The translations under genes were made by a program, and so were the position numbers. From assembly GCA_964106915.2 (NCBI GenBank), contig OZ066922.1: DNA of 64,000 nt; one strand, 5' to 3'. Below, piece after piece: positions 15,278 through 54,569 of this stretch. A model generated the notes under the pieces. That model saw nothing but the letters and a program-made list of their open reading frames with translations. It was not told the origin of the DNA and did no database searches. Source of the stretch: Podarcis gaigeae (taxonomy: Eukaryota). Within the stretch, counting starts at the first letter, position 1, and each line of letters starts with the position of its first letter.

Positions 15278-15615
15278 GCGGGTGGTGCTGTGGGTTAAAC
15301 CACAGAGCCTAGGGCTTGCCGATCAGAATGTCAGCGGTTCGAATCCGCGTGATGGGGTGAGTTCCCGTTGCTTGGTCCCTGCTCCTGCCAACCTAGCAGT
15401 TCGAAAGCACAAAGTGCAAGTAGATAAATAGGTACTGCTCCGGCGGGAAGGTAAACGGTGTTTCCGTGTGCTGCTCTGGTTCGCCAGAAGCGGCTTAGTC
15501 ATGCTGGCCACATGACCCAGAAGCTGTATACCAGCTCCCTCAGCCACTAAAGCAAGATGAGTGTCGCAACCCCAGAGTCGTCTGCGACTGGACCTAACGG
15601 TCAGGGGTCCCTTTA
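15278..15615 (+). mobile_element. Sauria SINE, near full length
   Basis: tRNA-related head with B box GGTTCGAATCC (15336-15346), body gtcatgctggccacatgacc, tail ending ggggtcccttta. Confidence 0.92.
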
Positions 15616-19198: not shown

Positions 19199-19730
19199 GA
19201 GGGTTTACACTAGGTACTGGCAGTGGTGGGGGACAGCTCCTTCTGGGCTGTCCACCTTTGGTCCACATCCTGCACTCAGCTCACACCTGTGGCTCCCAGA
19301 AGCTGTCAGCATGCGACAGCAGTCACATCCTGGTAAACAGCTTAGACTGGCCAGCTAAACCAGGTAAGGGTTCTCAGATCCTTAACCTTTGTTGCCTTGC
19401 AGGATATCTTCAGGAGAAAAAGCTAAGGAGGAAAGCCTACACAAATCAGGAGTGGAGTCCCTAAGACTGTTGGATGGGGCCTTGTACACCTTCTTCTGGC
19501 AACTCCTGCAGCCTAGCTGGTGGCAAACCTGTTGCTCTGCTTTCCTTTGGACCCCATCAGCATGGCTGAAGAGGGGGTATTGATATCTGGGCAGTCCAGG
19601 ACCTCCATACACACTGCCTAGGCTTGTGCTCCGGGGAAGTGATTTCGGTGCTGCTAATGCAGCAATTTGACTTCATCTCTGGGGCTGCACTCCATTGTCT
19701 CTTGAGACAGACTGATGGCAACAACAATAG
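19199..19730 (+). mobile_element. Non-autonomous RTE-related retroposon, copy 1 (diverged, internally deleted)
   Basis: Homologous to 46505-47208 and 53809-54536 (ggcaactcctgcagcc..caggacctccatacacac..ccattgtctcttgagacagac..caacaac); no TSD found. Confidence 0.75.
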
Positions 19731-30408: not shown

Positions 30409-30572
30409 TAAAGGTAAAGGGACCCCTGACCATTAGGTCCAGTCGTGGCCGACTCTGAAGTTGCGGCGCTCATCTCACTTTACTGGCCGAGGGAGCCGGC
30501 GTACAGCTTCCGGGTCATGTGGCCAGCATGACGAAGCCGCTTCTGGCAAACCAGAGCAGCGCACAGAAATGG
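30409..30572 (-). mobile_element. Sauria SINE, 5'-truncated
   Basis: taaaggtaaagggacccctgacc..gggtcatgtggccagcatgac. Confidence 0.9.
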
Positions 30573-40312: not shown

Positions 40313-40583
40313 CATGAACATGGCAACCTTAGATTACAGGCACATGAAATGAATTACACTATCCAGATTTAAATTTTTATTTTCTATGATTTTAAAATAA
40401 TTTTAACAGCAGCTACTGGGGCTTTCTTTGATGACTACGCAGCCAGCTTCAAGGGTGTCCTGAGACATGCACTGGCCAGTTCCAGATCAGCTTACCTTCA
40501 CAGATAGACACTGACACATTGGGCAACTTTAGAACACTCCATTGAGAAATGTAAGGCAGTCTTTCTGGCTTCTACTGCTTATA

Positions 40584-40927
40584 AAGGTAAAGGGACCCCT
40601 GACAGTTAAGTCCAGTCGCGAACGACTCTGGGGTTGGGGTGCTCATCTTGCTTTACTGCCCAAGGGATCTGGCGTTTGTCCACAGACAGTTTTTCCGGGT
40701 CATGTGGCCAGCATGACTAAGCCGCTTCTGGCGAAACCAGAGCAGCGCACGGAAATGCTGTTCAACTTCCCACCGGAGCAGCACCTATTTATCTACTTAC
40801 AATTTGATGTGCTTTCGAACTGCTAGGTTGGCAGGAGCTGAGACCAAGCAACGGGAGCTCACCCCGTTGCGGGGATTCGAACCACCAAGGCTCAGTGGCT
40901 TAGACCACAGTGCCACCCGCGTCCCTG
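40584..40927 (-). mobile_element. Sauria SINE, full length with TSD
   Basis: Head to (ACCTTT) tail; 11-bp TSD TACTGCTTATA (40573-40583, 40928-40938); ~20-bp deletion in the head. Confidence 0.95.
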
Positions 40928-45862: not shown

Positions 45863-45937
45863 TAAGCAAGATGAGCGCTCAACCCCAGAGTCATCTGCGA
45901 CTGGACCTTATGGTCAGGGGTACGTTTACCTTTTTAC
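45863..45937 (+). mobile_element. Sauria SINE 3' fragment
   Basis: gcaagatgagcgctcaaccccagagtc..ggtcagggg..tttaccttt. Confidence 0.85.
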
Positions 45938-46504
45938 AGTTACCGTACTTATAACACTGTTTCCTGATCAGTCTGTTCAGATCCTGCTGTGTATTTTTTC
46001 TGAGGGAACCAACCAAATAGAACAGGTGGCTAGATGTATTAATGTAGCCAGTTCTTACCTTGTCTTCCTTTCCTTCACTTTTAATCGTTTCACAGAGACT
46101 GAAATTCTGTTTTTTGTATTCATGGTTGTGTGAACCATGAACTAGGCCCCAAAGCTCATTTCCAGCAGCTGATGAAACAAAAGGCTCCACATACTCCTAT
46201 TTCCTGACAGCATGAGAAGAAGAGCTACATCATAATTGATGGAAGCCCCACACAAAGCACATTACAACAGTCAAGCCAGGAAGTTACAAGAAAATGAATG
46301 AAAAGCTGAATAGAGATATTTATGTGTCAATAGCTTATGTGATATCTGTTTATATTTGTACTGTGGATTTGTACTGTGTCAATCATTTTGTTATAGAAGC
46401 CTTTTATGTGTAACGGATTAAGACTTTTCTTGATAAAAATACAGGTGTGCTTCATAGGCATACATAACATGACATTATTTATGTCAGCATGTTAAAGCAT
46501 ATTT

Positions 46505-47208
46505 GGGGTGTATGCAGTGTTAGGGGAGAGGTAGTACTTCTGGTGGAGAATATGGCATGCTCTATCTGGGGTAGTTTGAACACTTTTGGTCCCCACCTTG
46601 CATTCAGTTCTCACCTCTGACTCCTAGGAGCTGTCAACATGTGACAGTGGCCACATCCCGGGAATGGCTTCAACTGGCCAGCTAAGCCAAGTGAGAGTAG
46701 CTGATGGGTTTCAAACCCTGAGTGAGTTAGGAATTTCCCCTGCATGTGAAAAAAGGCTCCAGTGTATTGAGCGGACGAGACCAATAGTCTGTCCAACAGT
46801 CAAGAAGGTGGTTTCTGCGCGTGCCATAGGGAGAAGTGAGGGGCAAATGAGGCTCATCTAGGAAAAAAGAAAACTCTGATCCTAAAACCTTACTGCCTTG
46901 CGGGAGTAAAGCCCTACACAAATCTGGAATTAAGTCCCTAAGGCAGTGGGATGGGGCCGTGTACGCCTTCTTCTTGCAACTCCCACAGTCAAGCTGGTGC
47001 CAAACATATTGCTCTGATTTCCTTGGGTCCCCATGAGCGTGGCTGAAATGGGGGAGGGGGTCTTGTCATCTGGACCACCCAGGACCTCCATACACACTGC
47101 CCAGGCTTGTGCCCTGGGAAGGTCACTTTGCTGCTGCTAACACAGTGGTTTGACTTCACCGTCGGAGGCGAACCCCATTGTCTCTCGAGATAGACAAATG
47201 CCAACAAA
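46505..47208 (+). mobile_element. Non-autonomous RTE-related retroposon, copy 2 (complete, with TSD)
   Basis: Starts GGGG, ends gccaacaaa; 12-bp TSD TAAAGCATATTT (46493-46504, 47209-47220); catctagga..aaactctgatcctaaaacc..ctgccttgcgg motif resembles RTE 5' regions. Confidence 0.85.
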
Positions 47209-48089
47209 TAAAGCATATTTTCACTAACATCTGACACATTATACATAAAGAGAAAGGAAAGGAGAGTGAATTTTAAAGCACTAATACTGAAAATGGCTCA
47301 GTTCAGATATGTTACAGATTGATTTATAATTAATACCCAGCTAGGTATTACCTTTACCTTAGGTATTAACAGCACAAGAAGCACCACTCACTGAAGTGGA
47401 TGAGAGAAGCTTCTGATCATGTGTGCAACAGAGTGCATTAAAGGGTCTGGTCTTTGTCTTAGAGCAGGGATTTACAATATCTGTTACAAATCAGCAGGAT
47501 TTTATAAAGCAACTGTAAGAAATAATTCTGACCCATCTTAATTGGACAGTAGGATATGCCTGAATGGAACAGCAAATGCAGCCTAATGCTGATATATGCA
47601 AAAATCAGATTTGCATTTTTTACTTAAGGAAAGCTCATTACCAATGCTACATTTCAAGCAAATAAGAACTGTGAGTACTCAACAAAGCTCAGTTTTAAAG
47701 TTTTTAAATTTTGTATAAAGAATTGGAGACAGCCTTATATTGTGTGTAGAAAGAGCCATCTAATTAAAACTGATTGTGCTAACTGGATCTTCAGTGTGGA
47801 ATTATGTAACATGCATTCAACACGCCTATTATCAATATCTTGTTGGTTCAGAAAGAAAAACATTCTGATGTATTAGTGCTTATGGGCTTTGTTGGCCTGG
47901 TTTGGATGATGATATCTTTGCTCAAGATACAAATTCATGGGATAGCTCATCTCCCTTCTTCAGCTTCCTGCAAGTCTTCAATTAACTACAGGTAGGGAAG
48001 GAGGAATGGTGACTTAGCAACTTAGGTCTACTGCAGGACTTCAATTTTGTCCCTTTGCTCCCTTCTTTTTTCTTTAAAAACGCTTTGAG

Positions 48090-48225
48090 CAGTGTTCAAT
48101 GCTAGTCCTATTCACAGCAGACCCACTGAAGTTAATGGACACGACTAATTAAGGTGCATTAATTTCAGTAGGTTCATTAATTTCAGTGGGTCTGCTCTGA
48201 GTAGGACTTAAGTTGAATGCAACCC
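48090..48225. mobile_element. Palindromic MITE
   Basis: agtcctattcacagcagacccactgaagttaatg / cattaatttcagtgggtctgctctgagtaggact. Confidence 0.75.
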
Positions 48226-52230: not shown

Positions 52231-53808
52231 GAATGGAATTAGACCACACTGGAACAGCCCATGACATAAAATTAATTTGTGAAACTTGTTTTCTCTGAAT
52301 CCACACAGTGAATCATTAGTGAAATTAACCTCTAGCCAGAGGTCCATTTTGTTTAACAATTGGTCCATTGTGTAGTGTTTATGTATATACACGTTTGTGT
52401 TTCAGAATGTACAACTTGAAATGCCTCTTCCTATTAACACTGCTTACTAAGGCACTACTTCAATATCTTTGAAGAAGTGTCTAAAATCAACACCTGTAGA
52501 CTTCTCAAAGACTCCTGAGCAGAATGCAAGTTCACTGCCCTCTCATCCTGTTTCACATATCTGTTTATGTAATACAATGTTTCTAGACTGTAATTGACAC
52601 CAGTAAAGGAAATTCACACAAAGATATTATGTCACAGCAGGCTCTGCACTGGCAAATCAGAGAAAACACACACACAAGCGAAACCCCTTCAGAGAGCACT
52701 GCAATGATTTATAAATGAAGCTGAGAGCAGAGGTGTGATATATGAGAAATATAAGCAATTAAATGTGGGATATTGCTGGGTGTTGACAACAGACCGTGTA
52801 TAGTACATACAATTCAACACCTTCATGTTCCCATGAGGTGTCAAGATTCTCAGCCTCACATTATTCTACACCTTTAACAGGAATTGCATGGTATAGGCAC
52901 TGATGCCCATGTGTGGTTCTGCCATGTTTCAAATAAAGCAACAAAGGAATTAGATTATGAACAAAGCAGGTAATTTTAGTCAGCTTGGCTAGAAAAGCTG
53001 TGGGGGAACTATAAGCAACATTCATAAACTTATAAATATTAACAATTTAAGCAATAGGCTATACTACAGGTTTAACTACTGCAATATGGCCAAACATTCA
53101 GAAGAACTGTAATGGTTGTGAATATGTGTTTGAGAGTGTTCCCTACAATTAAAGGAAATGAGTGTGCCTTTAAAATGGTCTCTCTTTGATTCTGTTGATC
53201 AGTTTGTCATCTGTTGTTAAACCACTGTCTCACATGAACTACACAATCTAACTGATATTACACTTTAATATGTCTGCATGACTGTGGCTCTAGGGGCAAG
53301 AGGTAAGTGTAAAATGTTCCAGTTCTCCAGTACTCTGATGGTAGTGAAAACCTCCATCCAGCCTCTCAGAGCCAAAGTGTATTCTATATACTTCTTTCAC
53401 GCTAACATCTAATATACTGAACAGCAGGGAGTTGTAGACTGCTATAATGACTCATGATTTAGTGAGATACAGTGGCATGTTTAAATAGATTCCAGACTAA
53501 ATACCTGTGGGCAAACAGCATTAAGAAGTGGTATCAGTACTACTGATTATTCAATGAAAATGTATCTTAGTTCATAAACTAATCAGATTCCTAATGATTA
53601 TTAGTCCCCCAGGGGAGAGAAAATTAAGATAGAAGCAGTTTTTTAAATTACCTTTTGGACTAAATTCTATTTTATTTTGGATAAGCATGTATATTTTATT
53701 TTCTAAAGCATTATGTAGTAAGGTACTCAACAGCTCCAGCTAAAAAATCTGCTACAGGGTTACAGGGTAGCCCCAACTCCACTACAGCAGTGTGGTTAAT
53801 CCTACCAA

Positions 53809-54536
53809 GCCACAAGGCAGTAGAATTTTAGGATCAGAGCTTTCCTCCACCTAGATGGGCTACCTTCCCAGGTTGACAAGCCCCATCTGCTGCTTCTTTA
53901 TTGCTGGACTCACTACTAGTCTCGTCGCTCAATCCACCAGAGCCTATCTTTGCATGCAATGAAAGTTCCTAACTCACTGACGGTCTGAGATCCATTGGCT
54001 ACCCTCATCTGGTTGTTGTCGCATGTGGAGTGCAGGGTGGGGATCAAAGGTGGACAAACTACTCCAGAAGGAGCATGACTTCCTCCACACCACAGATACT
54101 ACCCCTCCTCTAACACACCATATGGCACAAACCCCACCAGCTTCAGGAGTAAATCCCATGGAAACATCTCTGGAAGAAGAAAAGGCTAGACAAATCCAGA
54201 GGTTGTTGGATACCTTCTTGTACACCGCCTTCTGGCAACTCCTTCAGCCAAGCTGGTACAAAATGTATTGCTCTGCTTTCTTTTGGGCCACATCAGTGAG
54301 GACGAGAGGGAGATATTGTCATCTGGGCAACCCAGGACCTCCATACACACAGTCCAGGCTTGCACCCTGGAGATATCACTTTGGTGCTGCTTTCAGCAAA
54401 AAACAATTCGGGAGGCAGCAGATACGAGTTACCATCTCTGAAGTAACAGCAGGTGCCGTGCTTCCCCAGTGGTTTGACTTCACCTCCCGAGGCACACTCC
54501 ATTGTCTCTTGAGACAGACAGATGCCAACAACAACA
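53809..54536 (+). mobile_element. Non-autonomous RTE-related retroposon, copy 3, 5'-inverted
   Basis: 53809-54135 is the reverse complement of the 5' half of copy 2; 54136-54536 is the sense 3' half ending (CAA)n; 11-bp TSD AATCCTACCAA (53798-53808, 54537-54547). Confidence 0.88.
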
Positions 54537-54569
54537 AATCCTACCAACCTCCTTCAATACAATCTTTAT

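What the first reader, a model, noticed from the sequence alone, without database searches (positions are those of the whole stretch)
53798..54547. Twin-priming-type 5' inversion in a non-L1 retroposon
Seen: one insertion bounded by TSD AATCCTACCAA. The left arm (53809-54135) is antisense, running from an internal point (..ctgccttgtggc) out to the element's true 5' end (GGGGTTTG), which is joined to the sense 3' half ending (CAA)n. The uninverted copy at 46505 is an internal control. Established: this is the twin-priming geometry, described mainly for L1-mobilised RNAs. Inference: an RTE-type RT can prime from both nicked strands, here copying the second cDNA to the RNA 5' end.
Basis: partly seen in the sequence, partly recalled or inferred. 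Interest (0 to 1): 0.7.

Follow-up and report, generated by a model that had tools for sequence, protein, structure and literature searches.

The report
Flipped-front insertions of an RTE retroposon
This copy of a reptile-type jumping element has its front half flipped, about 3% of sampled sister copies share that layout, and it likely arose because the element's RNA was copied from both cut DNA strands at once, a process described mainly for the unrelated human L1 element.

Summary
An exact 11-bp target-site duplication (TSD; 53798-53808, 54537-54547) brackets an antisense 5' arm (53809-54135), 4 filler bases and a sense 3' arm (54140-54536) ending (CAA)4; 19 nt of element are missing between the arms. 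Contigs of 8 public runs carry the inverted form, so it is not a misassembly; no empty or uninverted allele was seen. The family is a bipartite non-autonomous derivative (5' UTR plus 3' end) of an RTE-type LINE in the same genome, not an L1 client. The same geometry occurs in 7 of 252 copies sampled without regard to orientation (2.8%, CI 1.1-5.6), in 12 other non-autonomous copies overall and in 2 autonomous copies, each with its own breakpoints; the arms nearly abut far more often than by chance. Twin priming by RTE machinery is the best explanation (about 0.8), inferred from geometry; microhomology here is only 1 nt. Corrections: GGGGTTTG is not the family's 5' end, and the 46505 copy is a shorter subfamily. 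Known mechanism, clade not found reported in my searches.

The parts
53798..53808 (+). left copy of the 11-bp target-site duplication; its last A also fits the element (1-nt overlap with the inverted arm)
53809..54135 (-). inverted 5' arm: consensus c418 back to c1-c6, 88% identical; inferred second cDNA
54136..54139 (.). 4-nt filler at the inner junction; no microhomology between the arms; 19 nt of element (c419-437) missing
54140..54536 (+). sense 3' arm c438-c885, 85% identical, long subfamily, ending in (CAA)4 from 54526 whose last A is the first base of the right TSD; inferred first cDNA
54537..54547 (+). right copy of the target-site duplication
46505..47207 (+). uninverted full-length copy of the short subfamily with a 12-bp TSD (46493-46504 / 47209-47220)
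19236..19727 (+). third, uninverted, internally deleted copy of the family (matched range)

Best explanation
This is one insertion of a non-autonomous RTE-derived retroposon whose 5' half lies inverted between an exact 11-bp target-site duplication, likely because the RTE reverse transcriptase primed cDNA from both nicked target strands on the same RNA (twin priming). Shown: the geometry, the TSD, the RTE origin of both ends of the element, and recurrence in about 3% of sampled copies. Inferred steps: (1) the first nick primed cDNA at the (CAA)n tail, which ran to about c438; (2) the second nick, 11 nt away, freed a 3' overhang before the first cDNA was finished; (3) that overhang primed near c418 with 1 nt of pairing and was extended to or near the RNA 5' end; (4) host end-joining fused the two cDNAs, leaving 4 filler bases and 19 nt uncopied. 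The insertion is old and probably inert.
For: Anatomy. Real and shared by 8 runs under 8 organism labels. RTE partner: tail-only copies share an upstream ORF end and the last ~100 nt with the family; RVT_1 at E 5e-08 in L380; 22 homologs, the long ones ~1,040-1,100-aa endonuclease-RT proteins, against E 0.5-1 for human L1 ORF2p; the family's 5' body is colinear with that ORF in L108, L405 and L416; the body closely resembles the RTE-12_AMi 134-237 segment printed in the supplement of PMC5786205 (compared by eye). TSDs in 38 of 223 uninverted copies against 43 of 1106 shuffled pairs, 34 of 38 being 9-12 bp and 23 of 38 starting with A, matching RTE values in PMC6007223. Recurrence: 7 of 252 orientation-blind copies; 12 other non-autonomous cases; autonomous L367/L404 and L414. 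Arms within -5..+30 nt of abutting in 8 of 13 (null mean 0.85; 0 of 200,000 permutations) and 4 of 8 among cases not picked by an inverted pattern (p 0.0012). L153 has an 8-bp TSD, a 3-nt outer and a 5-nt inner microhomology.
Against: At this locus the outer microhomology is 1 nt and the inner junction has none, so the hallmark pairing is not above chance here. No empty site was seen in 8 runs. Only 3 of the 12 other inverted copies have a clear TSD (L153, L199, L335); about 6 have degenerate candidates and 3 none, though uninverted copies also mostly lost theirs (17%). Other rearrangements occur in these decayed copies: L240 tail-to-tail pair, L201/L202 fold-back with overlap, L247, L431 and L423 internal inversions, L411 complex. 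PMC4245944 saw 5' inversions only with L1 in human cells apart from one Nimb-2_DR insert. Two breakpoints in the permutation test were hand-adjusted, and the test ignores motif-selection constraints.
Confidence: 0.8

Rival explanations
1. A normal full-length insertion was later inverted at the DNA level (repair or replication error), before the sampled species split.
For: The copy is old (85-88% to consensus) and carries many internal deletions. No empty or uninverted allele can date the event. Non-5' inversions exist in the family (L431, L423, L240).
Against: The outer breakpoint falls exactly on the TSD edge and leaves the TSD intact. The TSD end has no reverse-complement match near c418-438 by eye. 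13 non-autonomous cases share one polarity with different breakpoints.
Confidence: 0.1
2. The inversion formed during insertion but not by second-strand priming of reverse transcription: for example a free cDNA or RNA-DNA piece joined backwards by host end-joining, or a template switch onto a second RNA of the same family.
For: The weak microhomology and the 4-nt filler fit host end-joining. Overlapping fold-back cases (L201/L202, L247) are not simple single-RNA products.
Against: Near-abutting, non-overlapping arms (8 of 13 within 30 nt, 13 of 13 without large overlap) suggest one RNA shared by two cDNAs. L153 shows pairing at both junctions.
Confidence: 0.06
3. Two independent insertions (a 5'-truncated sense copy and an antisense fragment), or mobilisation by L1 machinery.
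For: The family is dense (3 copies in this window; 985 matches to one two-motif pattern), and nested insertions are common.
Against: The antisense arm has no tail or TSD of its own; one TSD encloses both arms; both arms carry long-subfamily features and similar divergence. There is no poly(A) tail, and the 3' end is shared with an RTE-type LINE.
Confidence: 0.03
4. Assembly artefact.
For: None found.
Against: Short-read contigs from several studies span the inner and left junctions.
Confidence: 0.01

Closest known systems
L1 5' inversion by twin priming (Ostertag and Kazazian 2001, not held; seen through passages of PMC2912911, PMC4245944, PMC12016303)
   Same: TSD-bounded insertion with an inverted 5' arm that starts near where the sense arm stops; small gap or overlap between arms; microhomology at the junctions in some copies.
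   Different: Mobilised by an RTE-type LINE; (CAA)n tail instead of poly(A); TSD mostly 9-12 bp; rate about 3% against 18-22% for L1 and 13% for processed pseudogenes, but far above germline Alu (0.02%) and SVA (0%) in PMC12016303; the inverted arm reaches within 11 nt of the RNA 5' end in 6 of 13 cases.
The single 5'-inverted Nimb-2_DR insert in chicken DT40 cells (PMC4245944, passages)
   Same: A non-L1 LINE with ~12-bp TSDs producing a 5' inversion; the paper's idea that 10-20-nt overhangs allow second priming fits an 11-bp TSD.
   Different: One cell-culture event of another clade, against recurrent germline insertions of an RTE family and its non-autonomous derivative.
Bipartite non-autonomous RTE elements such as RTESINE1/2, MAR4_MD, WALLSI3 (PMC5786205, passages and supplement passages)
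   Same: 5' UTR fused to the 3' end of an RTE LINE, no ORF, microsatellite tail.
   Different: Family name not established (no Repbase or Dfam search possible); 'invers' does not occur in that paper's main text.

Membership tests
Twin-priming 5' inversion | One TSD enclosing both arms, the inverted arm starting at the TSD edge | tested here: met
   11-bp exact TSD, arm starts at 53808/9
Twin-priming 5' inversion | Intact sense 3' end with tail; inverted arm from just upstream of the sense arm's start | tested here: met
   c418 against c438, 19-nt gap; 8 of 13 cases near-abutting
Twin-priming 5' inversion | Microhomology between the TSD 3' end and the internal priming site | tested here: inconclusive
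   1 nt here; 3 nt in L153, 1 in L335, 0 in L199; too few intact TSDs for a test
Twin-priming 5' inversion | Microhomology at the inner junction | tested here: not met
   4-nt filler and no overlap at this locus; overlaps of 2-9 nt in L014, L153, L190, L223
Twin-priming 5' inversion | Inversion present from the moment of insertion (empty site against filled site) | tested here: inconclusive
   8 of 8 runs carry the inverted form; no empty or uninverted allele
Twin-priming 5' inversion | Second cDNA made by the element's reverse transcriptase from the second nick | not testable with these tools
   needs a retrotransposition or in vitro TPRT assay
Bipartite non-autonomous RTE element | 3' end shared with an RT-encoding LINE | tested here: met
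   c781-885 shared; 28 of 29 ORF-end loci hold it; RVT_1 hit
Bipartite non-autonomous RTE element | 5' part derived from the same LINE's 5' UTR | tested here: met
   L416, L405 and L108 carry the 5' body colinear with the ORF
Bipartite non-autonomous RTE element | Partner LINE belongs to the RTE clade | tested here: met
   RTE 5' UTR motif and RTE-12_AMi similarity in the supplement of PMC5786205 (by eye); ~1,050-aa endonuclease-RT homologs; no tree with named clades was built
Bipartite non-autonomous RTE element | RTE-type insertion signature: 7-15-bp TSD, first base A with a (CAA)n tail | tested here: met
   against PMC6007223
L1-mobilised RNA | Poly(A) tail and L1-derived or poly(A)-dependent 3' end | tested here: not met
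   (CAA)n tail shared with the RTE-type LINE; partner RT against human L1 ORF2p only E 0.5-1

The most novel reading that the evidence does not exclude
Twin priming is a regular by-product of RTE-clade retrotransposition, in cis and in trans: a few percent of germline insertions of this RTE family are 5'-inverted, which would mean RTE proteins nick the second strand before first-strand synthesis ends, and that overhang length rather than L1 or mammalian host factors sets the capacity for twin priming. This appears undocumented for RTE.
Probability: 0.55. Interest if true: 0.6.

Novelty: new member of a known kind. Interest (0 to 1): 0.45.

Why it matters
5' inversion is treated as largely an L1-in-mammals trait (PMC4245944, passages). 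A rate of about 3% in an ~800-880-nt RNA mobilised by an RTE protein, well above Alu and SVA, suggests that the timing of the second nick and the length of the 3' overhang decide it. That gives a genome-only read-out of the poorly understood second-strand step for a widespread, horizontally transferred clade, and a direct prediction: inversion rate should follow TSD length across clades in one genome. It also means repeat annotation splits such insertions into two. The single locus has no evident function.

Tried and rejected
Searching with the whole inverted element did not enrich inverted copies: ranking is by best single match, and none of the 39 other places showed both arms on one strand. 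Inverted-order pattern with gaps 0-400 gave 6 matches: the finding, L095 (inverted), L094 (colinear copy with at most a small local change) and 3 without a family match; gaps above 400 were not searched; the colinear control gave 121 for gaps 270-330 only. The pattern unintentionally matched colinear copies (985) and was reused as an orientation-blind sample; 16 matches, 3 clean inversions, 2 fold-backs, 11 colinear or unrelated. My first reading of no inversions among autonomous copies was wrong; tblastn showed L367. No empty site was found in 8 runs; that is absence of cover for the test, not evidence. Rfam found no ribozyme or other family in the element in 8 loci. Five DNA motifs of the element found no relevant paper. 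No full-length autonomous copy was recovered. A pre-inverted master copy is disfavoured because no other copy shares the finding's breakpoints. Two look-ups of earlier scan findings returned nothing. Rows dropped before the 7-of-252 count: 2 loci without a family match, 5 duplicates, 11 autonomous copies; L240, L247 and L305 stayed in the denominator but were not counted as 5'-inverted.

Full report
Observation. The 11-mer AATCCTACCAA lies at 53798-53808 and 54537-54547 and nowhere else on the + strand. Between them, 53809-54135 matches the window's other copies antisense and the rest matches sense. The family is abundant in the 1.51-Gb genome G000 (3,687 and 5,704 first-look candidates). In 29 of 29 other hits of the left arm, the right-arm match was on the same strand. 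That the host is a lizard is my inference from repeats resembling the Sauria SINE (recalled; no call names the organism).

Anatomy. Copies fall into a short and a long subfamily. Against the 885-nt long consensus the left arm is c418 to c1 antisense (282 of 321 aligned bases identical) and the right arm is c438-885 sense (334 of 393); 4 filler bases lie between and 19 nt are missing. The last base of the left TSD also fits the element (1-nt overlap), and the last A of (CAA)4 is the first base of the right TSD. The 46505 copy is of the short subfamily and is an imperfect control.

Reality and age. One contig spans the inner junction in 4 of 4 runs, and the left junction is bridged by 31 or more nt in 3 of 4. 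In 4 of 4 further runs one contig runs from the flank 30 nt into the antisense arm, with 8-17 differences in 589 nt, none listed in the arm. The eight runs carry eight organism labels; X17 may be the source sample. No empty or uninverted allele appeared, so the event predates these samples and cannot be dated by them.

Identity of the family. Among 90 tail-anchored loci, 19 matched only the tail, and several shared upstream sequence that translates to the end of a retroelement ORF. Of 29 further such loci, 28 hold c781-885 or part of it. L380 hits RVT_1 at E 5e-08, above the curated cut-off; L361 hits weakly (E 0.0045) and two C-terminal pieces do not. The C-terminal piece has 22 homologs, the long ones ~1,040-1,100-aa endonuclease-RT proteins, while human L1 ORF2p scores only E 0.5-1 against the RT piece. 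L416 and L405 carry the 5' body up to c782-786, then ORF, then tail; L108 carries the body followed by RT sequence. The supplement of PMC5786205 prints an RTE 5' UTR motif found in this family and an RTE-12_AMi segment closely resembling c495-590 (compared by eye, not aligned). TSDs were found in 38 of 223 uninverted copies against 43 of 1106 shuffled pairs; 34 of 38 were 9-12 bp and 23 of 38 began with A, as PMC6007223 reports for (CAA)n-tailed RTE elements. The element is therefore a bipartite RTE derivative; no tree with named clades was built.

Recurrence. Three samples chosen by motifs, not by orientation, gave 3 of 90, 3 of 88 and 1 of 90 5'-inverted copies; after removing 5 duplicates and 11 autonomous copies, 7 of 252 (2.8%, 95% CI 1.1-5.6). 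The first two samples cannot show breakpoints between their motifs and very short arms escape BLAST, so this is probably a lower estimate. L014 came, L095, and L190, L196 and L199. In all 13 cases (finding included) the inverted arm starts upstream of, or at, the sense arm's start, within -5..+30 nt in 8 (null mean 0.85; 0 of 200,000 permutations), and in 4 of 8 cases not picked by inverted patterns (p 0.0012). Two breakpoints were hand-adjusted and selection constraints were not modelled. The inverted arm reaches c11 or further in 6 of 13. Clear TSDs survive in L153 (8 bp; 3-nt outer and 5-nt inner microhomology), L335 (15 bp, 1 mismatch) and L199 (10-11 bp, 1 indel); about six are degenerate and three absent. 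Autonomous copies show the geometry too: L367/L404, 1 of 29, and L414, 1 of 29 others, with a weak and no visible TSD respectively. Against the reading: L431 and L423 look internally inverted, L411 is complex, L240 is a tail-to-tail pair, and L201/L202 and L247 have overlapping arms.

Mechanism. Twin priming, as described in passages of PMC2912911, explains the TSD-edge start, the polarity and the complementarity together; I put it at 0.8. The priming and joining steps are inferred. A later DNA inversion (0.1) needs a breakpoint exactly at the TSD edge and does not explain the shared polarity. Insertion-time joining without second priming (0.06) cannot be excluded given the weak microhomology. 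Two insertions, L1 mobilisation and misassembly are largely excluded.

Literature. PMC4245944 (passages) found 5' inversions only with L1 in human cells except one Nimb-2_DR insert, and proposed that 10-20-nt overhangs are needed. PMC12016303 (passages) gives 18-22% for L1, 13% for processed pseudogenes, 0.02% for germline Alu and 0% for SVA. PMC13295347 on reptilian Bov-B and Sauria SINE insertion signatures has no 'twin', 'inversion' or 'inverted' in its main text. PMC5389967, PMC2718515 and PMC11371274 hold the term only in their reference lists; PMC6895275 mentions twin priming for L1 only; of PMC6007223 I saw passages and section 18; of PMC5786205 passages and supplement passages; of PMC4844689 supplement passages. 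Searches listed no paper whose title or abstract start reports 5' inversions in RTE elements; most listed papers were seen as listings only. Ichiyanagi and Okada 2008, Ichiyanagi et al. 2007 and Ostertag and Kazazian 2001 were not held; the first analysed RTE junctions and may pre-empt the claim. Supplements of bioRxiv preprints could not be seen.

Verdict. Real, recurrent and most likely twin priming by RTE machinery: a known mechanism in a clade for which I found no report. Interest 0.45; 0.6 if the clade-wide reading holds and is unpublished.

Noticed in passing
L153 (G000:C24:14337400-14339800): Cleanest example: 22-nt inverted arm, exact 8-bp TSD, 3-nt microhomology at the outer and 5-nt at the inner junction, 2-nt gap.
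   Followed up: yes
L367/L404 (G000:C2:69708942-69712328) and L414 (G000:C8:1469382-1472744): Autonomous RTE-type copies with the same 5'-inverted layout; L414 has a ~1.5-kb inverted arm and a ~70-nt sense end.
   Followed up: partly
L201 (G000:C31) and L202 (G000:C32): Two paralogous copies with the same 3' flank and a fold-back of the element with overlapping arms; possibly one insertion on paired or duplicated chromosomes.
   Followed up: partly
L235 (G000:C1:90580800-90583200): Inverted copy with a different SINE-like repeat inserted at the inner junction, and a 3' flank resembling the reverse complement of the priming region over about 10 nt.
   Followed up: partly
consensus c404-485; L034-L060 and others: The long subfamily has a ~70-nt duplication-like segment; many 5' ends of truncated copies map to c468-478, partly an effect of the duplication. 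A further ~135-nt segment near c315 occurs in a few copies.
   Followed up: partly
L151:160-442: 7SK RNA match (RF00100, 203 bits) beside a family copy.
   Followed up: no
window 48095-48217: Short element with 46-nt inverted arms 31 nt apart, MITE-like.
   Followed up: no
window 15336-15615, 30409-30569, 40580-40883, 45880-45936: Copies of another short repeat family, resembling the Sauria SINE (label recalled, not tested).
   Followed up: no
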